A stretch of DNA of 64,000 nt from contig CALLBL010000005.1 of assembly GCA_937999345.1 (NCBI GenBank), positions 8,196-72,195 on the forward strand, in the 5' to 3' direction. The notes beneath the pieces were generated by a model, which searched no databases, was not told the DNA's origin, and was given only the letters and a program-made list of their open reading frames with translations. The DNA comes from an uncultured Candidatus Altimarinota bacterium (GTDB lineage Bacteria > Patescibacteriota > Gracilibacteria > BD1-5 > UBA6164). Shown piece after piece: positions 9,330-63,591 of the stretch. Numbering within the stretch: the first letter of the stretch is position 1; the number at the start of each line of letters is the position of its first letter. The translations under genes and the position numbers were made by a program.

Positions 9330-10130
9330 GTGAAAATACTTGCCTTTGGCGACGTATACTGAAGAGTATGAAGAAAAGCCCTCAAAAAAGAACTCCCAGG
9401 ATTACAGGAAAAATACAATCCTGATTTTATTATAGTGAATGTAGATAATATCACTTCATGAAGATGAGCTGTAGACCACCATGTCGAAGAGCTCAATGCT
9501 ATATGAGTCGATATCATGACGGGAGGGGATCATATATATGATAATTTTTCTCATATAAAGTCATACCTCCAATCAGATAATACCAACCTACTAGTACCAG
9601 CCAATACCTATGAAACTGATACAGGTATCTGATTTAAAGTCTTTGAAAAAAACTGAAAAAGACTTCTGGTTATACACTTGATGTGAAATGTCTTTGTGAG
9701 AGATAATCTTTATAATCCATTTCTCAAAGCAGATGAGATACTCGCGCTTGACCATGGTCATCTCGATGGAATCGTGGTTGATTTTCACAAAGAAGCTACT
9801 TCTGAGATATATGGTCTTGCTATGTATCTAGATGGAAGAATAAGTAGTATATTTTGAACACATACACACGTACAGACCAATGATGAACAAATCCTGCCGA
9901 AATGAACCGGGATGATGTGTGATATCGGTATGGTATGACCTCTTTACACTGTTATTGGGGCTACATTTGATTCAGTGAAAAACAGATTTTTAACTGGTAT
10001 CAATAAATGAAAAATAGAACAAGGTCTTTGAAAAGATTATGTACTTGGGTGAATGTATACAGAAATAGATCCATCGACTATGAAGTCTACTCATATAGAG
10101 AAAATAAGAATTCAGTGAACTACCATATAA
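9330..10130 (+). CDS. YmdB-family metallophosphoesterase (2',3'-cyclic-nucleotide phosphodiesterase-like)
   Basis: GTG start. VKILAFGDVYGRVGRKAL...PDFIIVNVDNITSGRG...IMTGGDHIYD...VDFHKEATSE...[29 protein letters not shown] matches the YmdB calcineurin-like pattern. Confidence 0.85.
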
Positions 10131-10145
10131 ATAAAAACAAATACT

Positions 10146-11393
10146 ATGTATAACGATTATAAAAAAAAGCAAAGATGATTCTCTCTCACAGAGATTATTT
10201 TAGTAGTTTCTATACTCATGATACTTGGTTCTATAGCTATATCAGCTTATAGTGTACACACGAGAACTGCTAGAGACGCGAGCAGAATCAAACAATCCCA
10301 AGAAGTAGCAGATGCTTTTGATATATATGCAGTATCAAAAAAGCTCCCTCAACCTGAAGATGCTGTTGATGTCTTGGTAAATGGTACACTCGTGTGATAT
10401 CAGTGATACGCTTCTGAGGAAATACTGGCAAGACTGAATTTTTTTAATGGTGGACTTGATCCTCTTGATAGAAACTATAAAAATAGAAGAAAGAAAAATC
10501 CTTATACATACTACCTTACAAAAGACTTAAAAAATGCTCAACTCTTGGTCTTTTTAGAGGATAGTAGTAATATAATATCATTTCTTCCAGAGGCTCATGC
10601 AGCTGATTATTCAAATAGAATACCAAAAGTTTCTGGGAAAAAGCTAGGAGTCCTTACTCACAATACTCTCAATACCCCAATTCAAGAAATAGATACTATC
10701 AGGGCTGCAGGAGAACTGGATATAGGTATAACTACCAATTTTTATACAGCTCATATCTCTGATGATAGAAAAATAACTGGAAATTTTAACCAGCTCGCAG
10801 CATCGACTCCTTTTGCAAGTTGTAGGAGAATAGCAGAATCATGAAAGAGATCAGGATGAAATAAAATGTATAGGATAAATCCCGATGGGAATGAATATAT
10901 AGACGTGTATTGTGATATGGATATAGCCAATGGATGATGGATGCTCATCGGTTCTAAGTCATCTGCGTGAGACCAAGAGAAGTGAAATCTCTGAACTGTT
11001 CGTGTTACAGAGGGGAGTAATGCAAATGTAAGTATTCCAAACGATCAAATATTGAATTGATTTACTGAAGCTATGGCATGTTCTTCTGAAAATTGTTGGA
11101 AATGGGATATGTCCGATGTATTTCGTGAATGTATTCGTAGTAATTGCTATACCCCTGAAAGTGATATAAATAATCTTGTGAGAGTAAAGTGAACGAGTTG
11201 ATTTTCTCTCTGAACTACTGATACAATCAAATATAATGATGCATCAAGTTTAGAATATATGTTTTCTCTCTACAATACTGGAACTTCTTTCTCATCACCA
11301 GCTCTATGAGCGTGGAGTGATAGAGTAGACGCTGACTGAGATGGAACATGATCATGGTGAGTCAGGGATCAGTGGCATTTATATATAAGATAA
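10146..11393 (+). CDS. Type IV pilin-like protein fused to a fibrinogen-related (YCDM...GGW) C-terminal domain
   Basis: Class III signal KKQRG/FSLTEIILVVSILMILGSIAISAY (Gly -1, Glu +5). C-terminal CRRIAESGKRSGGNKMYRINPDGNEYIDVYCDMDIANGGWMLIG. Start, internal ORF 10545 and stop are all in one frame. Confidence 0.75.
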
Positions 11394-11398
11394 TAACT

Positions 11399-11773
11399 AT
11401 GAAAAAAAAATTTCTCATCTTCGTACTCTTTGCGATATTTGTCTTGAGTTTTGTGACTTTTTTGATGATTATAAACTATCTGGATCCCTATGAAAATAAA
11501 GTGATAGCAATAATATCTATGGCTATTGCATTTTTCTTTTCTATGATGAGTGTATCTACACTTTTTTTATACGCATTTAAAAAAATCTACTTCAGATGAC
11601 AGGTATATCTCCATCATCTCATGACGAGTTTTAGACAGGGGGTCATGATTGCGATATTTTGATTATGACTCGGTATATTTTCGTCTATAGGAGCTCCTAT
11701 TTTTGTCTCTTGATTCTTGTTATTTATTATTTTGATTTGTATTGAGCTTTTTATAAAAAACATGGAAGCATAG
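11399..11773 (+). CDS. Small membrane protein (124 aa, about 4 TM)
   Basis: MKKKFLIFVLFAIFVLSFVTFLMII... Hydrophobic throughout. Follows the pilin gene after 5 nt. Confidence 0.6.
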
Positions 11774-11779
11774 TCAATC

Positions 11780-13870
11780 ATGAAATTATTGATTTTCCTT
11801 TCAAGAATCTTATTCTTGGTCTATTACAGAACTATTTTACGAACCTATCTGATGAACAAAAAAACTTTATACCTTACAGCTTCTTTCTTGCTTATTTTTT
11901 GCTCTGCAAATGTATTTGCTCTTTCAACGAGTCAAAAATGACAAATCATAAAGAATTTTGAAAGACTTCAGTATGAAATGATTTTTGAGAGTGATGGAGT
12001 ATTTTTAACTGATAGTGATAGACAAATACTCTCGACTTCAAGAAAGATAAACATATACAGCAGCATAGGTTCAAAGATACAATCAAAAACTGAATATCTA
12101 CAAAAGCAGAGTGAAAAAGTAGTAGATAGAATAGAGTCACTCGAATCAGCTATCGAATGAATAGATGAGAATATAGAGAATATTGTAAAAGAAATTAATA
12201 GGATTAATGCCGAAGTAGTTGAAACCAAATCATCTATAGAGATTAATAAGAAAAAAATCAGTATTCTCAGGAACAAGATCATTCAAAATAGAAATGTCCT
12301 TCTCGAATACATGACGCATCTCTACAAAAAGTGATGATATGTATATGATGAAAATACAAGTGTCGATAATCTCAGGACGATTTTATTGTCATGAGAAGAT
12401 ATGTCATGAGTGATAAATGATATACACTTTAAGTCATTGATACAAATCAGTGGAAAATCTCTCATAGATAAGCATAGAGGATATATCTCAGAGCTTTATA
12501 TCAAAAAAACAGCTCTCGAAAAAGAAGAGCTCAAACTCAAGCAGCTCAGAAAATCATGAGTAATAGAAAAGAAAGTGCTCAATGACAATAAAGAGTTCAA
12601 GGAAAGACTGCTCAATGTAACAAAATGACAAGAAGAGCTTTACCAAAAGTACATCAGTGAAAATCTAGAAAAGCAACAAGAACTCAAAGTAAAAGAACTC
12701 CAAGAGAGAATTAAGTTTAACAATGCAAGAGAATCTCTTCTCGATAGATATAATTGTGATTTTGTAGATGTATCAAGAGAAAAAGAAAAAGCAAAAACGC
12801 TAACTGAGCAGTGTCTCGAACTTAACAAGATTGTATACGCTGAATCGAGACTCAGTTGATTTGGTGACACAAAAAATATCCTTGCTTGGCCAGTTCCTCC
12901 ATTTGGATGAGTAACGGCATATTATCGTGACCAAGGATATACAGATACGTTTTGATCAGCGCATAACGCTATAGATGTCGCAGTTCCTCAATGAACGGAC
13001 ATACTTGCACCAGCTGATGGATACGTCATATTTATTCAACCACCAGTGACAGCTTCTGGATACGCGTATATAGCACTGAAGCATGCATGAGAGCTCGTGA
13101 CTGTACATGGTCATGTGAGTGAAGTCATGGTATGAAAAAATGATTTTGTAAAAAAATGAGAGCCATTTGCAAAGTCAGGTTGATGATATGGGACTCCATG
13201 AGCTTGAGTACTCTCTACATGACCTCACTTGCATATGGAAGTATTTAAGGACAAAGAGTATGAAGACCCATTTAAGTTTCTTGATCTCTCTTATCTTCCA
13301 TTTTCCACTCTACCAGAAAAATATAGGTTTAAATTTTTAGCTGATTTCAAGGAGAGAAAATGATATACATATGAAAAAGGAGAACCAGATGAGAAATCGA
13401 GATGATGAAAAGTATTTAAAATAGAGTGAAATACTGAAGTAGAAAGACAAAAGAACTTTCTCGAAACATATGCAGCTCCTGAGTTTAAAAGCTGGGATTT
13501 ATGGGTAGAGGAAGCTATCGATGGTCAAATTGATCCAACATTTCTGATGTGTCTTGGATTGGCTGAGAGTGGTTTATGAAGAAATCTAAAGACATCATAC
13601 AATGTATGAAATGTTTGAAATACAGATTCTGGATGAACTTACGACTTTCCAAATGCTAGAAGTGGTATTTTCTGGATTACTAAAACACTCAATAATAGGA
13701 TTCTTGGCTGATATACCAAGATAGAAGAGCTGAGTAGATATGGGAATAAAACTGGTTCTATATATGCATCTAGTCCGGATCATTGGCATAACAATATCGT
13801 AAAATGTATGTCCCACGTAAAATGAGAATACGTACCAGATGATTATAATTTTAGAATTACAGAATTATAA
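11780..13870 (+). CDS. Coiled-coil M23 (LytM/EnvC-like) peptidase with extra C-terminal domain
   Basis: WPVPPFGGVTAYYRD...AHNAIDVAVPQGTDILAPADGYV...HGHVSEV...GGGYGTPGAGVLSTGPHLHMEV. Long heptad-like N-region. The alternative start 11852 (MNKKTLYLTASFLLIFCSANVFA) gives a cleaner signal peptide. Confidence 0.85.
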
Positions 13871-16033: not shown

Positions 16034-17428
16034 TTAAGCTCTTTTTGATTTGGTAAACATAACTACTCCAAGTCATAGTATCATCGCAAGAAGTAAGAGT
16101 ATCAGCTCTGTTGGACCAGTTTGAACTTTTGTCATATCAGATAGATCTCATTCTATCGATTCTCCGTTTGAAGTATTGGTCATAGCTTTTACGGCAAATT
16201 CACTATATTTGAGTTCATCTCATACGATAGCTATTTCATATCTTGGTTCTACAGTATTATCGATAAGCTCTAGGTTTCAATCATCCATTTTCTTGTATAT
16301 ATTGTAGCTACTTGCTGCTTTGACTTCATTCCAGCTTAGAACTGATTTTGTTTTCAGCATAGTGAGTTTGAGTCCTGTTATGTCTAGATTAGCAGCATTG
16401 AGGTTATTAGATGGTTCAGATATACCATTATCATCTTGTTCTGTGGTAGCTGCATTGAGCTCTACTGATTCTTTTACGGTTATACTTTCTGCTTTGAGTT
16501 TTCTGGTTTCGTGACCAAAATCATCCTTGAGTATTACATCTATATAGTAAAATCATGGTTCACTTGGAGCAGTTGCTACTCAGGTATAGAGTCCATCTTC
16601 TCATTCATCAAGTCATACTATGATATCATTGAGTATAACTTCACTACTTGAGAGGCCAGCACTTGAGTATACTTCTACAGATATCTCAGTTCCAGCATCC
16701 ATTTCTCATGTAGGAGTTATTTTTATTTGTTTTAGCTCTGGAGCATTTGAGTTTACTTTTATCATTATTTCTTCTGTGAAACCAACTACGTTTTCATCAG
16801 AATCGAGTACAAATGCTTGTAGTCTATTTTCTCATTCTACTAAATCTCCTACTTCTTTTTCAAAGATTCCATCATCGTTACTGGTAGTTAGTATTTCTTT
16901 ATCTCAGTTGAGCATGATTCTTACTCTATAGTTTTTACTCGTTCCTCATGATACAGTAACTGAGTTTTTTCCTATAGTGAGTCATTTCTCAGGAGTATAT
17001 ATGCTTATATCTAAATCCTTTACTACTTCTTTTTCTGATATATCTATTTCTACTACTCAGAGGATATTCTCATCATTGAGGTCATATACATGTATATCTT
17101 GAGTTCATTCAGCGCTAAACTTTACTGCATTTTCAAACTTTACTTGTCATTCATCAGATACTTCAAACGTATAACTATTTTCTGAAAGATCGTTAGGGAA
17201 GTCAGCAGATGCGTCACTCTCTGAAAATACCAGAATAGAACCATCATAATCGGTAACCGTTTCACCATTTTTATCTACAGCTGTGATAGTGATATCGAGT
17301 GATTGTCATACCTCTGCAGAATTTTGTCAGAGCACTACTTCAAATCTATCCAGTGCAGCAAAAGTGACTGATGCTTGGAGTGTAAAGAGTAAAACAAAGA
17401 TTTTGCATATATTGAGTAAAGCTTTCAT
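16034..17428 (-). CDS. Secreted surface protein with Ig-like/FN3-like repeats and C-terminal membrane-anchor or sorting signal
   Basis: Signal peptide MKALLNICKIFVLLFTLQASVTFA and beta-rich repeats. SWNEVKAASSYNIYKK is FN3-like. C-terminus KVQTGPTELILLLLAMILGLGVVMFTKSKRA. Scanned the whole span: no in-frame TAA/TAG. Confidence 0.75.
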
Positions 17429-17534
17429 AAACGTCTTATATAACTTATAGATTAAAAGTTTCATAAAGTTAGTTTACTATTAATCGTTTTTATTTTGAAT
17501 TTATTTATACAATTCTTCTTTACAATTATAGTAA

Positions 17535-22447: not shown

Positions 22448-23263
22448 TTATTTTGAAAGTATATCTCAAATTTTAGCTGTGTTCTCATTTCTTTTGTTTT
22501 GAGCTTCTTTAAAGTCTCTTACTTTTTTAAGATCTTTGATTCTCGATTCTTGTACTTCTGAAATCTCATTAGTTTTTAGATAATCAATCACATTTACTAT
22601 TTCTTTCGCTATTACAGGGTATTTATCTTCTATTAATGGAATAACTTGTGATAATGTTCTATCAAAATATCAATTTTTCCATTCTGTATCTTCAGTAAAC
22701 ATTGTACTGTATATATTTGCCAATCTGTCTACAGACTTTACTAGAAGTGCAGAATCAGAGTTCCTTATCGTTGTATAATAATCTTCTTCTTCTATTACTT
22801 TTCAATCCACAGAGAAAGATACAAGTTTTACTATTTCAGCAACTTCTTCTCAAAATTTTAGTACTAATTCATTATAAGATGTATTTGTGTCTTCAAGGAT
22901 ATCGTGTAATAATGTTGCTAAAAATTCTTTTAAACTTCATCAACTCTGAGCACAATATATTGCAGCCATCATTGGGTGGTAGTGATATTCTGTATTTTCA
23001 TCCCTATATTGTCATTTATGCTTATTTTCTATAAAATTAAGTACTTCATATATTACTTCTTTATTGTTTGGAAAAGAAGCATCTACCATTTTCATAAAAC
23101 GTTTAGATATCTCAGATTGATCTAAATAAATATTTATTTCTGATTCTATAGAATTAGATATCTTTTGTGTATTATACCAAGATGGAGTATCTGAAATTTC
23201 TGTGCTTTTTAAACCTTTGGTAAAGTCTTCAACTGAGAATGGTTGTCTAGGCGTTATATTCAT
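22448..23263 (-). CDS. HD-domain phosphohydrolase of the RelA/SpoT (Mesh1/small alarmone hydrolase) type with an 80-aa N-terminal extension
   Basis: NKHKGQYRDENTEYHYHPMMAAIY...LATLLHDILEDTNTSYNELVLKFGEEVAEIVKLVS matches H-x-GQ-x-R...Y..HP...LLHD..EDT...FG..VA..V. Frame scanned and found intact. Confidence 0.8.
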
Positions 23264-23270
23264 AATATTA

Positions 23271-25784
23271 TTATTTAAGTAATGCTTCTTGAAGTTTTAA
23301 TAGTCTTTCTATTTCCTCATTTTTACCTCCTTCAATTATAAGTGTTTCCTGTTTTTTTTCAATTATATTTTTTACTATTATTGATAATTCTCAAGAGTCA
23401 AGATTTTCAGGTGTTTTATTTATTTCTTCTATTCATACAATTCTAGCTTCTCAGATCCCTCTTGAATTATCTACATAATTTATATTGGGTACATCTCTAG
23501 AGTTTAATTCATTCATTACATTTCTTACTTTTTTATATGTTTCTTTATAATATGAAACTCATACTGGCCTCCCAGTTTCTATTGCTCTTTTTACTATAGA
23601 TTCCCGTGCTTGTATAGGATCTCTATGTATCATATCAATATCTATATTGTGAATATTTGCTTTATTCGCCTCATTTTGTAAGTAGTCAATAAATCTTATA
23701 TCACTTAGTGGTGAATCAAATGTTATATCTGCTTGTCTATTTCGTGAATTTTCTACTACTTTTCCAGCTGAAGATTTTCATGATCCTGGTGCACCTCATA
23801 TTAATCTAATTCTAGAATTTATATCTCATTCTATTCCAAGTAGGAGTAATCTATAATGTATTTTGCTTAATTTTTGTACTATTTCATCAAATTCAGAACT
23901 ATTGAATCACTTATATTTTATAAAAATTTCTCTAAATGCATCGGGATCAATAACCTTTCAATTTTTAGCTGTATATATTGAAAATAATTCTTTTAATAAT
24001 TTATTTCAAGATACTAATTTTAAGACTTCCTCATGGCTTATAGATTCTTTAATAATAAATCATTTATCTTTATCAAAAATTTTAACAAATCATGGTATCT
24101 GTTCTAATTTGTCTATTGAAAGATCTAACTCAAGTATTCTTGATTTTATAGTTTCCGAACCACAAATATTATTATCAAGAAGCTTTCTAATATCTGTATT
24201 ATCAAATCCTCCTTGTTTCAGCGTTTTTACTTTCTTAGAGATATCCGAGATTGGATACAAACCATCCTCTCATCTCTCTCAGATCCTATGAGCCTTTATA
24301 ATTGCTTTTTTCTCTACGTCTTTTAGGTCTCTTCATAGATTTAATACACTTACAGCCTTATCTAATCGATCTATATCATCAGCTGAGAAGTCTAAGTTTT
24401 TCGTTTCTTCTACTTTCCCAAACAACATCTCCTTTATCTTCTTCACAGTATCTGGGCCTATCCCCATCTTTTCTCACATATCAGCAAAGCTTTTCATCAG
24501 AACACTTGGTTTTATTCTTCCAATTGCTTTTCAAACTTTTCAGAGTTTTCCAGCCTTTACTAAGCCTTGTACTCAAAATGCAGTAGCTCATAAACTTATT
24601 AGTCATATTAACCATTCAGCTGGAAACTCTTCCATATGAAACTCTTTTGGTACTATTCCTGATGCTTTCAATCATTTCATCACTCCATCCTGATTGGTGA
24701 GAGTACTTGTTAAATCTGCTGGCACACTCGTCACTGCTCCTGCATAAGGAATGAGTTGAGAAAGAACCGTTATGAGATATGCTACCATAGCATCTGATTG
24801 TATAGCTTGATCTGCTTCGCTGAGCATAGTTATCTCACGAATAGTAGATATATCTCATCCCATAGCTTCAAATCTTTTCATATGTCATCCCATATTTACT
24901 TGGAGGGTATCTATTTGAGCCATGCCATTGAAACCAAGCTCATCAAATTCTCAGCTCTTTGTATCTACTGGTGCATTAAACATTTCTTGAGCCTCAGATA
25001 TATTTCTCCCAAGCATACCTCTCACTATATTTTGTCTTTCTTCTATTGTTACGGTTCTTGAAGGTATCATATCTGAAGCAGGAAGCTCATATTCTTCAAA
25101 TTCCATACTCGCTATAGTATTTTCTATAAATACTTCTCTACTTTCTGCTTTGCTATACTCTTGAAGCATAAAGGCACTTGGAAGTATCTTATTGTTTATT
25201 TCTCAGAGATTATCTTGGATTTTTACATTGAGTATCCACCTCTGACCTGCTATATCTTCAGGATTGTTTTTCTTAATTTTCTGTACTATGTCTCAAATTT
25301 TTGAGATACGTATTCAGATAGAGGCTATTATTTTATTTTTTATTTCAGGCTGCAGCTCTGCTAAATCATTCTCTATATAATCCTTGTATCCACTTAGATA
25401 CTGAGAAATATCTAAGTTCAAACCATCAGTTGTTAGTTCTTCGTGAATAGAAACCAAATCATTGATTCAAAAATATTCTCATAGTGCTCATAGTGACTGA
25501 ATTTTCTCTCAGGCTTGTTCCATTATCTGTGGAAGATTCATACTTTGCATTTGAGAAACAAGAGCTTCTCAGATTTGTGATTGTTTTAGGTGTAGCGCGC
25601 TCGCAAATAAGGGATTAGATGAGGCTAAACTTGATACTATATCACGAGTTTGTTCTAAGTTTCCATCCTCAGCTATAGCATCTATACTTTCCATATCTCA
25701 CTTCAATAAAGCCTCAGAATGTATTGCTTGTACTTCTGGACTTATGCTTGGTCATTCGAAATATTCCGTGTTAGCTTGTTCCAT
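23271..25784 (-). CDS. 837-aa protein: unknown helical N-region, hydrophobic hairpin, C-terminal Zeta-toxin-like P-loop kinase domain
   Basis: Whole frame scanned: no TAA/TAG. Walker A RLIGGAPGSGKSSAGKVV (nt 23769-23798), then ADITFDSPLSD and NIDIDMIHRD. Hydrophobic AMVAYLITVLSQLIPYAGAV and EWLIGLISLGATAFGVQGLV. ATG overlaps the upstream TAA (TAATG). Confidence 0.75.
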
Positions 25785-28725: not shown

Positions 28726-29595
28726 ATGGTTCTCAGAGTTCCTCAAGATAATGGTCATGAATATACTGATTACAAAGATGCTATTGATAATATTAACCAG
28801 CACCTTTTATATATACAAGAAAATCACGAACCTCAATTAAACTGGTCTATTTATGGTTCTTTTCTTCATAATAGATTACGTCCTGGATTGAGTGATATAT
28901 ATGTATATTTATTACACGATAGTGATAGAGATGATTTCCCATTAGATATAGTATCATCTTGCCTAGATATAAAAACAAGTTTAGAAGATATTTGAATTCC
29001 TATAAAGATGCATCATACAACTACATGACAATTGAGTGAAAATTATTTTTCTTATTCTGATTATGCTATGGAGATAGTAAGATGAATACAAAGTCCGTAT
29101 TGTTCTCAGGATTTCAAGGTTTTATTTTCACACATTGAGAATATGCAAAAGAGTAATAAGGATATGATGAATGCTTATGTAGAAGATATAAAAACTCTTT
29201 TAGCTTTTTTACCAAAAACAAAAGAATTATCATCTATTCCAAAAAATAAAATTAATCCTCAAGAACAAGGAGAATTGGTAGAAATCTGGAGTATTTTTAG
29301 AAAAATGATTTCTATTTGTGCACTTGCTATAGAGCTAGATGATACTATACATATAGATGAATCTGCTTTTAGTAAGCCATATAGATGGGTAATCCAATGT
29401 TTTGCTTCAGAGTTTGATCCACATTGTACTGAAAATCTTATACAATATTATTTGAGAACAATTATTGGCATTAGAAATATGGATGATTGGTATCGTTTCT
29501 TATCTAATTGATGAGTAAGAAAAATAGAAAAACTTTATGAGAAGGTATTTATACCATTTTTAAATGCTATAGATAATAAATTTACAATAAAATAA
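28726..29595 (+). CDS. Pol-beta-superfamily nucleotidyltransferase-like protein, catalytic motif degenerate (paralogue 1)
   Basis: IYGSFLHNRLRPGLSDIYVYLL: G-S present, but DxD is replaced by DIY. Frame verified. Shares N- and C-terminal blocks with the next gene. Confidence 0.65.
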
Positions 29596-29597
29596 TT

Positions 29598-30470
29598 ATG
29601 CCATTAATAGTTCCAACATTACAAGACTACGATGAAGCAGAACAAAAGATTATTGAGTTTTTTTGAGATGTAGAATTTTTCAGGAGAGTAAATCAGAAAG
29701 TAGACTATATTATATATGGTTCATATTCAACTGATAAAGTAAGACCATGACTGAGTGATATAGATATGATGATACTCGCTCATACTGATGATTTAGTTTT
29801 TCCTTTTGATGTTTGAACAGCTTTTGCTTGGACGAAATGAGAAATAGAACAATTGGGTATACCTTTGCAGGTCAATATGTGTACTACTGGATTATTGAAT
29901 AGTCAACATTTTTCACCTGATTATGAATATCTTATGGAAGTGAAAAAATGAATAGAGAGATGAAAAACTTCGTCTAATAACATATGAAAATATTTTAAAA
30001 ATCATCGAGATAGTGATATAGATGATATGCATATGGTAAGATACTTTCTCAGAAAGGTAAATTCTCTTTATCAGGATTTCCGCAATATAGATCATTTAAT
30101 AATGAGATATAGTAAAGAAGACCTTAATAGGGAGCAGCAAAAAAAAGTTTGGCACGCATGGGATAATTTTAAAAAGATGATGTCAATTATTACTGTTGTA
30201 TTAAGAATCCAGAATAAAGAATCTTTGTTTTCAGAGACAGATGCTCATATAATGGAAAAATTTTCTCAAAATTTTGACCAAGATATAGATATGTCTGAAT
30301 ATGTTGTCATACTAGAATCTATTCAAGACATATGAGATTGGTATGATTTTTTACAGAGTAGTAAAGACGATGGTTTTAGAAGAATTATAGATTTATATAA
30401 AAATACTTTCACTCCGATGATAAATACTATTGATAAAAAATTATTGCTTCCAACTGATTCCAACATATAA
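29598..30470 (+). CDS. Pol-beta-superfamily nucleotidyltransferase domain protein (paralogue 2, motif intact)
   Basis: IYGSYSTDKVRPGLSDIDMMIL (GS...DxD). Frame verified. ATG lies 2 nt after the previous stop. Confidence 0.7.
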
Positions 30471-31929: not shown

Positions 31930-33261
31930 ATGAAATTATTTATCATTCTTTTTCTCTCACTTTTTAGTTTTGGGAGCACATATGCTTTTACAGATATCGA
32001 AAATAACTGGTATAAACAGTCTATCCTAGAGCTCAAAGAATCAGGAGTAATTAATTGATTTAATGACTGAACATATCTTCCAGAAGATAAAACCAGTAGG
32101 GCAGAGCTTCTCAAAATCATTCTGAACTCAGCTGGTATAGAGATTGTAGAACCTGAAGAATCTTGTTTTACAGACATATTCATGTGAAACTGGTTTACTA
32201 AGTACATATGTACTTGAACAAGTTTATGAGTAGTTAACTGATATAATGATTGAACATTTAAACCAAATAGTAAGGTCAGCGTAATAGAGGCATTAGCATT
32301 TTCAGCGAGAGCATTTGAGATAGATCTCTGAGAAACTCCAGAAGGGGAACAGTGGTTTGAGAGGTATCAAGAATTTGCTCATGATAGTAATATCATACCA
32401 ATCCATAGCTATACCGTAGATACGCTCATCTCGAGAGGACAAGCAGCAGAGCTACTTGTGAGAATGAAAAAACATGCAGACGGAGAAAGACTTGATTATA
32501 AAAGTGTCTGATGTGAAATGAATCCATCTCTAACATCAGGTTCATACAATATAGAAATAGATGGTGTTCAAAGAAACTATCTCCTCTATGTACCGAGTGG
32601 AATGAGTAAATGAAAAGAAATGTCACTTGCAGTAGCGTTTCACGGAAGAACAAATAATAATCAGCAAGTCAGAGACTATATGCAACTCTGAGGAGGAAGA
32701 TATGGATATAAACAAGATGATTTTATCGTAGCCTATCCTGCTGGAGTAGGAGCTGGGCCATTTAGCTGGTCACAGCAATCAAACATAAAACTTTTCGATG
32801 CAATAATCACGAAAGTATCTGAAGAGCTATGTGTAGACAGAGATGCAGTATTTACTGTTGGGCATTCACTCGGATCATACATGAGTAACAAAACTTCTTG
32901 TCTCAGATGAGATGTGGTGAGAGCTATGGTGTGAGTGGCAAGTTCTGGATATAGATGAGATTGTACCGGACCAGCTGCAAGCCTGATTACGCATCTCGAG
33001 TGAGATCCACTGGCTGGATATGCTGGATGAGTCGGAGCATACAATATAAAAAGCGAGATAAATATCTGCGAGGATGAAGAAAGAGATACGCGTGTATGAG
33101 ACATCAGATCATGTACGCAAAAGACAAGCTGTACAGATGGAAACACAGTGCTTTTCTGTAATGACTATGCAACATATTGAAACGATCAGCATAGCTGGCC
33201 AAAAGATGGGAGTGATGATATGCTGGATTTCTTTAGAGATATAGATAAATACTCAGAGTAA
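31930..33261 (+). CDS. SLH-domain protein fused to an alpha/beta-hydrolase esterase (polyhydroxybutyrate-depolymerase/LpqC-like)
   Basis: Signal peptide. Two or three SLH-like repeats (FTDIENNWYKQSILELKESGVINGFNDGTYLPED..., FTDIFMGNWFTKYI...NGYNDGTFKPN). Esterase part has LAVAFHGR...VAYPAG...TVGHSLGSYM. Frame verified line by line. Confidence 0.8.
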
Positions 33262-61314: not shown

Positions 61315-63591
61315 ATGAATGTATCAAAAATAAAATCTTTCTTTTTGGATAATAAAAAATCGCTTTTTTATACAGTATTTTTTCTTTTTTCATTTTTTCT
61401 TTTTAGTGATTTAGCTTTTGCTAATAATGCTACATGAGGAACTTGAGAAAGTGACACCATAAATGAAGTGATTAAAGTAGTAAATTATATACTAGTGATG
61501 TCATCAGCCTTATTATGAGCTGCTACTGCTATGATATCGTTGTTTTTAACACCAGGTTGGGTGAATGGAACTATTTTTGGCCTTGATTCATATATGAAAG
61601 ATATGTGGATTATGATTTCAAATATAGTTTATTTTGCTTTTGCATTCATACTTATCACGATAGCATTCATGAATATCATATGAAAATGAGATAAATGGGA
61701 ACTTAAATCTGCGTTACCTAAATTTATAGTGTGAGTAGTAATGGTTCCATTTACGTGGTTTTTCGTACAATTTATTCTTTCTATATCTGCTATACTGACA
61801 GTATGAGTTCTTACACTTCCATATGATTCTTTTGAATCAAAATCAACCTATCAAGATGCAATAAAACAGATGGAAGCAATTATCTCTAATCCAGAAAATC
61901 AAAATACTTCATGAGATCAAGCTAACGAATGAATACCTACCACTTTCATATTAAATCTTTCTCAAAATCTTGTTCCAGCTAGTTGAGAAAATGGAGCGTC
62001 AGTAAAAAAGAAAGAAGAATTTCTAGTGCAGTGAAACGATAAAAAAATAACTGAAATACTAAAATGAGATGGTGCATCAGGTCATGAAAATAGTATATTT
62101 TGAGTACTCGGATTATATACATATGGTATAATGCAAATTCAACATTTAGATACAGAAAATGGTTGGTTATTCTGAGAAGCTATTAGCGATATTACCGATA
62201 TGACTCTCAAGTTAGTTTTTGATGCTCTATTTATCATAGTGTATTTAGTGCTTATGATTGCTCTTTTCTTAGCATTATTAGTAAGAGGAATAAAGCTTTG
62301 GGTATATGCTATGTTGTCTCCAGCGTTTGGATTACTTTATTTCTTTGATAAAACTGATGGAGTATGATCTGGGAGTGCTAAATTTGGAATAAAAGATTTC
62401 ATATCTCTTGCTCTTGTCCCAGTTTATGTAGCTGCAGCATTATCATTTGGACTATTATTTATAATGGTATCGAGTCATGGTATGTGAACATCCAGCTTAT
62501 TAGCAAAATGTACAACTGAAGATTTAGCTGGTATAGAATCATCAGTTTCTCCAGACAAAATGAACTGTATGAATATAGGTTCATTTACGTTTGCTATTCA
62601 ATGAGCTGTCTGAGAATCAACTTGATGAGCTCCTTCAGGATGAGCATTTGGAAGAATTATTATGCAATTATTTGGTATTGTTGTATTATGGTTGGCTGTG
62701 ATGATGGCATTAAAACAATCTGAAATAACTGAACAAATTGCTAAACCAATTTGAGACTTCTGAAATAGTGTATGATGATTGGTTGCTAAATCACCTATGT
62801 ATGCACCTATAATACCTGGAGGATTGAGTGTGACGTGACTTAAGAGTGCTTGATCTACTGTTACTTCTGCTGTTGAACAAAGATCTTCTAGACAATGATC
62901 TGATTTTGCACAGCAGAATTTCCCATGATTATTCTGAGAAAATTTTAAGAAATTAAATGATGCAACAATTAATCTTAGAAGTGCTGCACAAGATATGGAT
63001 AAGTATAATAGATCAAGGGAGTTAATAGCTACAGCATGAAGTGCCCAAGCCTTAGCAGATAATAAGCCAGCAAGAGAGGCTTTAGCTGACGCATTTAAAT
63101 CTATCAGATCATGAGCTTTTGGTTTTGATGTATCTGAAGAAAGAATTGACGAATTAAGAAATGCATCCTCAGCTGATGCAGTTAGATGAATACTTAGAGA
63201 TATTGAAAGAAAAGCAAGAAGCGAGCAACATACTATTTTATGAACTAGATCTGAAAGAGATGTTCAAACATCAGATCAAGTTGATTCAGCTATTAGAAGA
63301 ATGTCACCTACAGAAAATCCAATAGAAGCAACTCTGTCGTCTTCGCCTAGCTCAGCACAAATCCAACAAGTTACTAACAAGGCTTGAGATCAAATAGATC
63401 TAAATATAAATCCAAGTAATAGTGCTAGCGATATAAGTAATAACATTAGAACTACACTATGATTTAGTCAAAATGATGTGATTGATTCTTCAACTCTTAC
63501 AGATATCAGGAATAAATTAGATGACATTGATGATCTAGATGGTAAAGTTGATGCGATAATAACATGATTGAAACCAACTTCTACCGATTAA
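61315..63591 (+). CDS. Large multi-pass membrane protein (758 aa) with long hydrophilic C-terminal tail
   Basis: All 758 codons checked (many TGA, no TAA/TAG). Signal-like N-terminus, at least 8 hydrophobic helices, Gly-rich loops, Ser/Asp/Asn-rich tail. A VirB6/TrbL-like role is only a guess. Confidence 0.65.

What the first reader, a model, noticed from the sequence alone, without database searches (positions are those of the whole stretch)
10146..11393. Type IV pilin-like protein fused to a fibrinogen-related (YCDM...GGW) globular domain
Seen: the N-terminus has a canonical prepilin signal (KKQRG/FSLTEIILVVSILMILGSIA, Glu at +5). The C-terminal ~190 aa begin CRRIAESGKRSGGNKMYRINPDGNEYIDVYCDMDIANGGWMLIG. 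This reproduces the C...G...Y-x-I-x-P-x-G...VYCDM....GGW-x-(L/V)-I core of fibrinogen beta/gamma C-terminal domains, which are carbohydrate or ligand-binding lectin folds in animals. Inference: a pilus-tip or minor-pilin adhesin presenting a lectin-like head, plausibly for attachment of this episymbiotic or predatory lineage to host-cell glycans. A small membrane protein and an M23 peptidase follow.
Basis: partly seen in the sequence, partly recalled or inferred. Interest (0 to 1): 0.65.

Follow-up and report, generated by a model that had tools for sequence, protein, structure and literature searches.

The report
Pilin with fibrinogen-like adhesin head
This gene, from an uncultured Gracilibacteria-type bacterium that reads TGA as glycine, encodes a type IV pilin whose far end carries a short fibrinogen-like motif plus a lineage-specific cysteine-rich head; it is most likely a pilus-borne attachment protein of a design already catalogued but never studied.

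Summary
Window 10146..11393 (+) is one 415-codon gene only if TGA is read as Gly (code 25), and orthologue comparison proves that reading. The corrected protein passes the curated thresholds of Pfam N_methyl, Pfam Fibrinogen_C and NCBIfam NF040941 (bacterial "YCDxxxxGGGW").

The fibrinogen similarity covers only the first ~50 residues of the head (A-subdomain plus the GGW strand). The last ~150 residues match nothing by sequence and occur in only three protein clusters, all pilins. AlphaFold models are low-confidence; the 33 best PDB fold matches of the full-length model are all fibrinogen-related domains, but weakly (TM ≤0.40). The canonical sugar/Ca2+-binding P-domain motifs are absent.

The protein belongs to a Gracilibacteria family that shares a ~210-residue pilin carrier and swaps heads (fibrinogen-like, Laminin_G_3, Fib_succ_major). 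Paralogues sit in tandem arrays beside pilus ATPase and platform genes. The window itself has no pilus machinery. The local order YmdB–pilin–small membrane protein–M23 peptidase is conserved.

Modular pilins are an established concept, and the pilin+fibrinogen architecture is already listed (8 proteins) in Raynaud et al. 2021. Verdict: a new member of a known kind, of moderate interest.

The parts
10146..11393 (+). Gene for a 415-aa modular type IV pilin (code 25; 17 TGA=Gly codons; stop TAA at 11391..11393)
   Evidence: Orthologues P0002-P0008 match at E 1e-224 to 7e-145 over 100% of the length.
10146..10178 (+). Class III (prepilin) leader peptide MYNDYKKKQRG. The predicted cleavage site follows Gly11, which is a TGA codon at 10176..10178.
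   Evidence: Pfam N_methyl residues 6-31. Motif scan. G/'W' alternation at this column in orthologues.
10179..10241 (+). Hydrophobic N-terminal segment of helix alpha-1 (FSLTEIILVVSILMILGSIAI), with Phe+1 and Glu+5
   Evidence: Direct reading. F12, L14, E16, I18 and V20 are nearly invariant in 27 family members. The AlphaFold helix spans 14-61.
10179..10805 (+). Pilin 'carrier' module, residues 12-220, shared by a Gracilibacteria paralogue family. It contains no cysteine.
   Evidence: Invariant R43, D44, R47, Q50, Y85, Q86, D105, P106, T121, Y122, Y123, N176, P178 and Q180. Identity to 18 paralogues is 25-46% up to residue ~220 and 3-15% beyond ~260. The model shows a helix plus beta-strands at pLDDT 60-84.
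10818..10958 (+). Fibrinogen-like A-subdomain unit (residues 225-271): C226 ... Y242-x-I-x-P ... VYC253DM ... GGW265-MLI
   Evidence: Pfam Fibrinogen_C residues 226-271 on profile positions 5-49 of 221. NF040941 residues 225-268. PDB fibrinogen beta, angiopoietin, intelectin and XEEL hits. hhalign probability 95-98.5% for these columns only.
10959..11390 (+). Lineage-specific remainder of the head (residues 272-415). It has four invariant Cys (C303, C308, C321, C326), a conserved R-x4-D/N-G...W...D-x-W-x-LYIR end, and unknown fold.
   Evidence: Alignment A6. No PDB hit at E<=10. The whole head is found in only 3 of 1.84 billion representative clusters, all pilins.
9330..10130 (+). Conserved upstream neighbour: YmdB-like phosphoesterase (GTG start). 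It ends 15 bp before the pilin start and is probably co-transcribed.
   Evidence: Pfam YmdB. Same position in all orthologous loci.
11399..11773 (+). Conserved downstream neighbour: a 124-aa membrane protein with four hydrophobic segments. It starts 5 bp after the pilin stop. It has no family and its role is unknown.
   Evidence: No Pfam hit. tblastn finds it directly after the pilin in all six orthologous loci. Hydropathy.
11852..13870 (+). Conserved downstream neighbour: 672-aa M23 peptidase with signal peptide and a coiled-coil N-terminal half
   Evidence: Pfam Peptidase_M23 E 3e-18. Conserved position.

Best explanation
The gene encodes a modular type IV pilin.

Predicted, not shown: a prepilin peptidase removes the 11-residue leader after Gly11. 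The hydrophobic helix with Glu+5 then lets the ~210-residue pilin module be built into a type IV pilus by an ATPase/platform machinery encoded elsewhere in the genome. The C-terminal ~190-residue disulfide-bonded head is thereby held away from the cell.

The head opens with a unit homologous to the A-subdomain and first core strand of animal fibrinogen-related domains. It continues in a lineage-specific region that probably forms the binding surface.

Its most likely job is attachment of this host-dependent Gracilibacteria-type cell to a surface structure of another cell. Whether the ligand is glycan or protein is unknown. The protein is one of a family in which the same pilin carrier is joined, at the same junction (…I-T-G-x-G-x-x-L…), to different binding heads: fibrinogen-like, Laminin_G_3 or Fib_succ_major.
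For: Shown:
- Prepilin signature above Pfam threshold, with G-1, F+1 and E+5.
- Fibrinogen-like unit above the Pfam and NCBIfam thresholds, and significant against PDB fibrinogen chains.
- C226 and C253 correspond to the first fibrinogen-domain disulfide. C226 is conserved in >=90% of the 27 family members, and the YC motif was found in 24 of the 27. Four more Cys are invariant among head orthologues, as expected for an extracellular domain.
- Both halves are under purifying selection.
- The family shares the N-terminal ~220 residues and diverges completely after the junction. The heads are Fibrinogen_C-like, Laminin_G_3 or Fib_succ_major.
- In L022 a T2SSE ATPase (E 5e-115) lies directly upstream of a fibrinogen-head pilin and two Laminin_G_3 pilins. 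In L008 a PilT-like ATPase, a T2SSF platform protein and a 206-aa pilin lie within 8 kb of a family member.

From the literature:
- Modular pilins with vWA or lectin modules are pilus adhesins in Streptococcus sanguinis (PMC8179133, PMC9934059).
- Gracilibacteria express type IV pili, and these are held to mediate host attachment in this radiation (PMC11452946, PMC8080830, PMC11623550).

Weak support for a fibrinogen-like fold of the whole head: all 33 best PDB fold matches of the full-length model are fibrinogen-related domains, with probabilities up to 0.95.
Against: - There is no pilus machinery, prepilin peptidase or second pilin in the 64-kb window. The gene sits in a conserved housekeeping-like neighbourhood.
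- TIGR02532 scores 16.2 against a cut-off of 16.3.
- The structure models are low-confidence, partly because only the mistranslated (Trp-for-Gly) sequence was accepted by the tool.
- The canonical ligand- and calcium-binding P-domain motifs of fibrinogen-related lectins are absent, and the last 150 residues have no detectable relatives outside three pilin clusters. Binding activity is therefore inferred only from architecture.
- Position in the pilus (tip, shaft or none) is untested.
Confidence: 0.6

Rival explanations
1. The head is not a fibrinogen-related domain. The ~50-residue YCDxxxxGGGW unit is a small self-standing module (as NCBIfam models it, 46 positions) that caps an unrelated, lineage-specific domain. 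'Fibrinogen-like lectin head' is then a misnomer, although the protein may still be a pilus adhesin.
For: - All sequence and profile methods stop at ~50-60 residues in this protein, in 8 paralogues and in unrelated giant bacterial proteins.
- The remaining 150 residues give no PDB hit.
- Of the 149 best representative-library hits beyond the orthologue cluster (368 hits at E<=0.001 in all), only one has the canonical GGWW..C P-domain motif.
- The same unit also gives sub-threshold matches to the fibrillar collagen C-propeptide model.
Against: - In giant bacterial proteins the unit recurs every ~200-250 residues. That is the size of one fibrinogen-related domain, and each repeat ends in a hydrophobic strand + Arg/Lys like the pilin heads.
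- phmmer extends collinearly to ~130 residues with angiopoietin-2.
- Foldseek on the full-length model returns only fibrinogen-related domains as its top 33 hits, many over ~240 columns.
Confidence: 0.4
2. The prepilin-like N-terminus serves only as a secretion and membrane-anchoring device. The protein is a cell-surface-anchored binding protein that is never polymerised into a pilus, as with class III signal-peptide substrate-binding proteins of archaea (this comparison is from my own knowledge).
For: - The gene is isolated from any pilus gene in the window and lies in a stable housekeeping neighbourhood.
- The carrier is unusually large for a pilin (~210 residues).
Against: - Glu+5 and the helix sequence are strictly conserved, and nearly identical to those of a short 206-aa pilin encoded beside T2SSF in L008.
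- Paralogues are arrayed directly behind a T2SSE ATPase.
Confidence: 0.2
3. It is a minor (pseudo)pilin of a DNA-uptake or secretion-type filament, and the head binds DNA or a secreted cargo rather than a host cell.
For: - Type IV filaments of this radiation are also proposed to take up DNA (PMC8080830, PMC11452946).
- NCBIfam gives weak N-terminal matches to GspG, GspH and ComGE.
Against: - Those matches are far below the family cut-offs and cover only the generic N-terminal helix.
- Sister heads in the family are lectin-type modules (Laminin_G_3, Fib_succ_major), which argues for surface or carbohydrate recognition.
Confidence: 0.1

Closest known systems
Modular type IV pilins: Streptococcus sanguinis PilB (vWA module) and PilC (concanavalin-A-like lectin module) (Raynaud et al. 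2021, PMC8179133; Shahin et al. 2023, PMC9934059)
   Same: An N-terminal pilin module with a class III signal peptide, followed after a short linker by a bulky module not specific to pilus biology. The expected role is adhesion by display on the filament.
   Different: The added module differs (fibrinogen-like unit plus a lineage-specific region). The carrier is much larger (~210 residues). The organism is a code-25 member of the candidate phyla radiation. No experimental data exist.
InterPro architecture IPR012902 - IPR002181 (pilin N-terminal methylation site + fibrinogen C-terminal globular domain), listed for 8 proteins (plus 2 with IPR013545) in Dataset S1 of PMC8179133
   Same: The same two signatures in the same order. 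The meaning of IPR002181 was checked.
   Different: The dataset is only a count: no member was analysed or named. Orthologues of this protein carry no precomputed Pfam hit because public copies are mistranslated, so they were probably not among those 8.
NCBIfam NF040941 'GGGWT_bact', fibrinogen-like YCDxxxxGGGW domain-containing protein
   Same: Residues 225-268 match the whole 46-position model above its cut-off.
   Different: The model is a short domain signature with no assigned function. Most matching proteins are large multi-repeat bacterial proteins, not pilins: 12 of the 149 best hits beyond the orthologue cluster look like pilins.
Animal fibrinogen-related domain lectins (ficolins, FIBCD1, tachylectin 5A, angiopoietins) and intelectins/XEEL
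   Same: The A-subdomain motif with its disulfide pair and the GGW(T) strand, and a similar overall size (~190 versus ~215 residues). These are the only PDB families recovered by sequence or by the weak fold search.
   Different: There is no detectable B/P-domain sequence, no DxDxD calcium site and no C-A..GGWW..C..NLNG loop. The fold is not confirmed and sugar binding is untested.
Type IV pili of Saccharibacteria that mediate episymbiosis (PMC11623550; Xie et al. 2022, cited in PMC11452946)
   Same: A host-dependent ultrasmall bacterium of the same radiation in which pilins are the proposed or shown host-attachment organelle.
   Different: A different phylum-level lineage, the standard genetic code and different pilins. 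No fibrinogen-like head is reported there.

Membership tests
Type IV pilin / class III signal peptide protein (PF07963, IPR012902) | Short charged leader ending in Gly (-1), then Phe/Met +1 and Glu +5 in a ~20-residue hydrophobic stretch | tested here: met
   MYNDYKKKQRG|FSLTEIILVVSILMILGSIAI. Pfam N_methyl 25.2 bits versus cut-off 21.2. TIGR02532 scores 16.2 versus 16.3, just under.
Type IV pilin / class III signal peptide protein (PF07963, IPR012902) | Long N-terminal alpha-helix packed on an antiparallel beta-sheet (pilin fold) | tested here: inconclusive
   The AlphaFold model has a helix at 14-61 followed by 8 strands up to residue 212, at pLDDT 60-84. No pilin appeared among the 50 listed PDB fold matches, of which the top 33 were fibrinogen-related domains.
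Type IV pilin / class III signal peptide protein (PF07963, IPR012902) | Prepilin peptidase and assembly machinery (ATPase, platform) in the same genome | not testable with these tools
   Only 64 kb of the genome is available and it holds none. Paralogues in related genomes are adjacent to T2SSE and T2SSF genes.
Modular pilin (sensu Raynaud et al. 2021) | A pilin module plus a C-terminal module defined by a signature not specific to pilus biology | tested here: met
   N_methyl + Fibrinogen_C / NF040941. The architecture is listed in Dataset S1.
Modular pilin (sensu Raynaud et al. 2021) | Direct role of the extra module in a pilus-mediated function | not testable with these tools
   Needs experiments.
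Fibrinogen-related domain (PF00147) | A-subdomain: Cys...Y-x-I-x-P...(V/F)YCDM...GGGW(T) with the first disulfide pair | tested here: met
   Residues 226-271 on profile positions 5-49, 25.6 bits versus cut-off 22. Fibrinogen beta E 7e-6 with the head profile.
Fibrinogen-related domain (PF00147) | B-subdomain sequence core (DF..W..Y..GFG, EFWLG, central sheet) | tested here: not met
   No significant alignment beyond profile position ~63 by hmmscan, PDB profile search or hhalign. There is only a weak collinear phmmer extension with angiopoietin-2 to residue 352.
Fibrinogen-related domain (PF00147) | P-subdomain with calcium site (D-x-D-x-D) and the C-A...GGWW...C...NLNG disulfide loop that forms the ligand pocket | tested here: not met
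   Absent on direct reading. The last 150 residues give zero PDB hits at E<=10. The greedy hhalign pairing has near-zero confidence.
Fibrinogen-related domain (PF00147) | Overall three-subdomain fold | tested here: inconclusive
   Models are low-confidence (pLDDT 57 and 48.5). Full-length model: the top 33 PDB hits are all fibrinogen-related domains, probabilities 0.3-0.95, TM 0.26-0.40 normalised to the target, no E<=0.001. Head-only model: nothing significant.
NCBIfam NF040941 GGGWT_bact | Score at or above the curated cut-off over the 46-position model | tested here: met
   35.2 bits versus 30, residues 225-268 on positions 1-46.
Intelectin / X-type lectin | Fibrinogen-like N-terminal part plus the intelectin-specific calcium and diol-binding domain | tested here: not met
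   Only head-profile positions 4-81 align (window residues ~222-299), at E 4e-5 to 6e-3. Nothing aligns in the remainder.

The most novel reading that the evidence does not exclude
Gracilibacteria may keep repertoires of modular pilins. One conserved ~210-residue carrier would be recombined at a fixed junction with interchangeable binding heads (fibrinogen-like, Laminin_G_3, Fib_succ_major). These heads would set which host cells the episymbiont or predator can attach to, which is the pilus counterpart of receptor-binding-protein swapping in phages. Within that scheme the 'YCDM..GGGW + hypervariable remainder' head would be a prokaryotic, strongly diverged fibrinogen-related scaffold whose variable half plays the role of the P-domain.
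Probability: 0.25. Interest if true: 0.6.

Novelty: new member of a known kind. Interest (0 to 1): 0.35.

Why it matters
If the head is displayed on pili, it is a concrete candidate for the molecule by which an uncultivated, host-dependent Gracilibacteria-type cell recognises its partner. That is the main unknown for this radiation. The family's design, with one carrier and several heads, gives a short list of proteins to express and test on glycan arrays or candidate hosts.

There is also a practical lesson. Public protein collections hold these genes translated with TGA=Trp, which erased both domain signatures from the precomputed annotation. Such adhesins are therefore systematically under-counted in code-25 lineages.

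Tried and rejected
- **Table 11 ORF calling:** gave only fragments. Code 4 (TGA=Trp) was rejected by the G/'W' alternation test.
- **Structure prediction with the correct code-25 sequence:** I had to use the Trp-for-Gly database versions (P0001 full length; the head of P0008, which has the fewest substitutions). Both models are low-confidence.
- **The search for homologous proteins with the head alone:** returned nothing, although full-length orthologues exist. This is an index limitation, not a biological result.
- **Homology of the last 150 residues:** the PDB profile search was empty. hhalign against repeats from giant bacterial GGGWT proteins and against a 4-sequence fibrinogen-domain alignment was significant for the first ~33-54 columns only.
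- **Intelectin-type lectin:** considered because of PDB hits. Rejected as membership because only the shared N-terminal unit aligns.
- **Functional operon of adhesin + M23 lysin:** considered. The whole 20-kb neighbourhood (PyrG, TsaE, MscS, RecF-like, GatC) is syntenic in orthologues, so adjacency alone is not evidence.
- **Promoter/terminator scan:** at background level in this AT-rich DNA.
- **Source names for orthologues:** none on record.

Full report
**1. The observation**

With the standard bacterial code the region is a mosaic of ORFs of 40-100 codons. Frame 1 of 10146..11393 contains 17 in-frame stops, all TGA, and ends in TAA. When TGA is read as sense, the whole 64-kb window resolves into long genes, and this one becomes a 415-residue protein.

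The choice between TGA=Trp (code 4) and TGA=Gly (code 25) was settled with seven orthologues from the protein database, which turned out to be stored as code-4 translations:
- At the window's 17 TGA codons the orthologues carry 35 G and 72 'W'.
- At the window's 16 GGN codons they carry 73 G and 33 'W'.
- At the six true TGG codons they carry 39 of 40 W and never G.

TGA and GGN are therefore interchangeable, and the organism uses code 25. Three orthologous genes read from DNA with code 25 are also free of stops.

**2. Significance of the two signatures**

The corrected protein passes these curated cut-offs:
- Pfam N_methyl: 25.2 bits against 21.2, residues 6-31.
- Pfam Fibrinogen_C: 25.6 bits against 22, residues 226-271.
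- NCBIfam NF040941, 'fibrinogen-like YCDxxxxGGGW domain': 35.2 bits against 30, residues 225-268.

A profile of the head from seven orthologues hits fibrinogen beta chains in the PDB at E = 7e-6. It also hits a lamprey serum lectin, angiopoietins, XEEL and intelectin-1 at 4e-5 to 8e-3.

**3. How much of the head is fibrinogen-like**

All sequence methods agree that the similarity covers only the A-subdomain and the GGW(T) strand:
- Pfam aligns profile positions 5-49 of 221 here, and positions 4-63 at most in eight paralogues translated from DNA.
- hhalign gives 95-98.5% probability for 33-54 columns, against a small alignment of solved fibrinogen-related domains and against ~200-residue repeats of giant bacterial proteins. 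It gives nothing beyond.
- A profile of the last 150 residues finds no PDB sequence even at E<=10.

An exhaustive HMMER search of 1.84 billion representative proteins gave 368 hits at E<=0.001. The entire head was found in only three clusters (P0008, P0030, P0031), all pilins of the same kind. All other hits match just the ~50-residue unit, often 3-15 times in proteins of 1,000-4,500 residues. In those giant proteins the unit recurs every ~200-250 residues, and each repeat ends in a hydrophobic strand followed by Arg/Lys. This resembles the 'WHLYIR' end of the pilin heads. That points to a domain of fibrinogen-domain size with conserved ends and a free-running middle, but it is an observation, not a test.

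The P-subdomain hallmarks that make animal fibrinogen-related domains lectins are absent. These are the D-x-D-x-D calcium site and the C-A...GGWW...C...NLNG loop.

**4. Structure**

The tool would not accept the code-25 sequence, so the mistranslated database versions had to be used.
- The full-length model has mean pLDDT 57. The pilin module scores 60-84, with a helix at 14-61 and a following sheet. The head scores 28-70.
- A head-only model of the orthologue with the fewest Trp-for-Gly errors has pLDDT 48.5 and pTM 0.51.
- Foldseek with the head-only model finds nothing significant. Ficolins recur at probability ~0.1.
- Foldseek with the full-length model returns fibrinogen fragment D, ficolins, tenascin, intelectin, XEEL and the lamprey lectin as all 33 best PDB matches. 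Probabilities are 0.3-0.95 and many alignments span ~240 columns. However, TM-scores are only 0.26-0.40 normalised to the target, and no E-value is <=0.001.

I read this as a hint that the head is a strongly diverged fibrinogen-related scaffold, not as proof.

**5. The pilin half and its family**

Database and genome searches found 27 proteins and 42 loci. Nearly all loci come from assemblies labelled Gracilibacteria, 'Peribacteria' or Patescibacteria; a few weak N-terminal-only matches come from other phyla. Of the 22 top-ranked loci translated, 21 had in-frame TGA.

These proteins share the first ~220 residues. The window protein is 25-46% identical to 18 paralogues up to residue ~220 and 3-15% identical beyond ~260. 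They diverge at a common junction (…I-T-G-x-G-x-x-L…) into different heads:
- fibrinogen-like in about nine of the 22 translated loci;
- Laminin_G_3;
- Fib_succ_major;
- others.

Several genomes carry more than one member, often in tandem arrays of 3-5 prepilin genes.
- In L022 a T2SSE ATPase (E 5e-115) lies directly before a fibrinogen-head pilin and two Laminin_G_3 pilins.
- In L008 a PilT-like ATPase, a T2SSF platform protein and a short 206-residue pilin with a near-identical N-terminal helix lie within 8 kb of a member.

This ties the family to type IV pilus machinery.

**6. Local context**

The window gene itself is solitary. No other prepilin motif, pilus ATPase Walker motif, peptidase motif or pilus Pfam family was found in the 64 kb.

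Its neighbourhood runs PyrG, a glycosyltransferase, STAS, TsaE, a 7TM protein, a sugar transferase, a membrane protein, YmdB, the pilin, a 124-residue membrane protein, an M23 peptidase and MscS. This order is the same in orthologous contigs whose pilins are 80%, 67% and 53% identical. The gaps of 15 bp (YmdB to pilin) and 5 bp (pilin to membrane protein) suggest co-transcription. Because the whole block is syntenic, adjacency to the M23 peptidase is not evidence of a joint function.

Both halves of the gene are under purifying selection: dN/dS is about 0.05-0.2, with synonymous sites saturated. The head is as conserved among orthologues as the carrier (58-84% identity). It is therefore a stable function, not a hypervariable one within this lineage.

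**7. Comparison with what is known**

Raynaud et al. (PMC8179133) defined modular pilins as a pilin module joined to a functional module. They showed that PilB of Streptococcus sanguinis is a pilus adhesin, and Shahin et al. (PMC9934059) described the lectin-module pilin PilC.

Their Dataset S1 lists 1,219 such proteins in 264 architectures. These include IPR012902-IPR002181 (pilin + fibrinogen C-terminal globular domain; 8 proteins, plus 2 with an extra domain), IPR012902-PF13385 (229) and IPR012902-IPR011871 (40) (meaning of IPR002181 checked). To my knowledge IPR011871 is the Fib_succ_major entry; this was not checked. If that is right, all three head types seen in this family are already catalogued, though none of the fibrinogen type has been analysed.

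Gracilibacteria and Absconditabacteria are reported to encode and express type IV pili, which are thought to mediate host attachment and DNA uptake (PMC11452946, PMC8080830).

The finding is therefore a new, uncharacterised member of a known kind. Three things this analysis adds:
- the fibrinogen similarity is confined to a ~50-residue cap;
- the family has a carrier-plus-swappable-head organisation in a code-25 lineage;
- public mistranslation hides these proteins, since P0001-P0008 carry no precomputed Pfam hit.

**8. Verdict**

I am highly confident (about 0.9) that this is a prepilin-type protein with a fibrinogen-like cap on a C-terminal head. I am moderately confident (about 0.6) that it is displayed on type IV pili as an adhesin. 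Whether the head as a whole has the fibrinogen fold is roughly even odds, and its ligand is unknown. Interest is moderate, because a specialist would expect such proteins in this radiation.

Noticed in passing
whole window; P0001-P0008: The window uses code 25 (TGA=Gly). The public protein collection stores its proteins and their orthologues translated with TGA=Trp. These mistranslated copies have no precomputed Pfam hit, whereas the corrected protein passes PF07963 and PF00147. The wrong code hides domains in this lineage.
   Followed up: yes
window 11399..11773 (+): A 124-aa protein with four hydrophobic segments and no family hit starts 5 bp after the pilin stop. It is conserved in that position in all six orthologous loci. 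A 41%-identical copy lies about 2.5 kb from a Laminin_G_3 pilin in L017.
   Followed up: partly
window 11852..13870 (+): The M23 peptidase has a signal peptide, a ~300-residue coiled-coil-like N-terminal half and a ~170-residue C-terminal extension with no Pfam hit.
   Followed up: no
window 23271..25784 (-) and 22448..23263 (-): An 837-aa protein whose C-terminus matches Zeta_toxin at the gathering threshold (22.7 versus 22.3 bits) lies next to an HD-domain protein. This is the lowest-GC part of the window (0.26 at 22-24 kb) and may be a mobile or toxin-type island.
   Followed up: no
window 61315..63591 (+): A 758-aa polytopic membrane protein with a long polar C-terminal tail and no Pfam hit.
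   Followed up: no
window 31930..33261 (+): A secreted protein with two S-layer-homology (SLH) repeats followed by a Cys-rich region. It points to an SLH-anchored surface layer in this organism.
   Followed up: no
window 16034..17464 (-): A 476-aa surface protein with weak Ig-like matches (Glucodextran_B above threshold; Filamin and GH85_C below) and a C-terminal membrane anchor.
   Followed up: no
window 28726..29595 (+) and 29598..30470 (+): Two adjacent genes of 289 and 290 residues that look like paralogues. The first was scanned and has no Pfam hit; the second was not scanned.
   Followed up: no
L022 8571..14164; L013 546..6725; L020 7018..9570: Related genomes hold arrays of modular pilins. 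L022 has a T2SSE ATPase followed by three pilins (one fibrinogen-like head, two Laminin_G_3). L013 has five prepilin genes in a row. L020 has an 850-aa pilin with a very Cys-rich head.
   Followed up: partly
P0028, P0029, P0033 (representative-library hits): In giant bacterial proteins the YCDM..GGGW unit recurs every ~200-250 residues, 7-14 motif copies per protein. Each repeat ends in a 'h-x-h-Y-R-E'-type strand. This suggests a widespread bacterial domain of fibrinogen-domain size in which only the first ~50 residues are conserved.
   Followed up: partly
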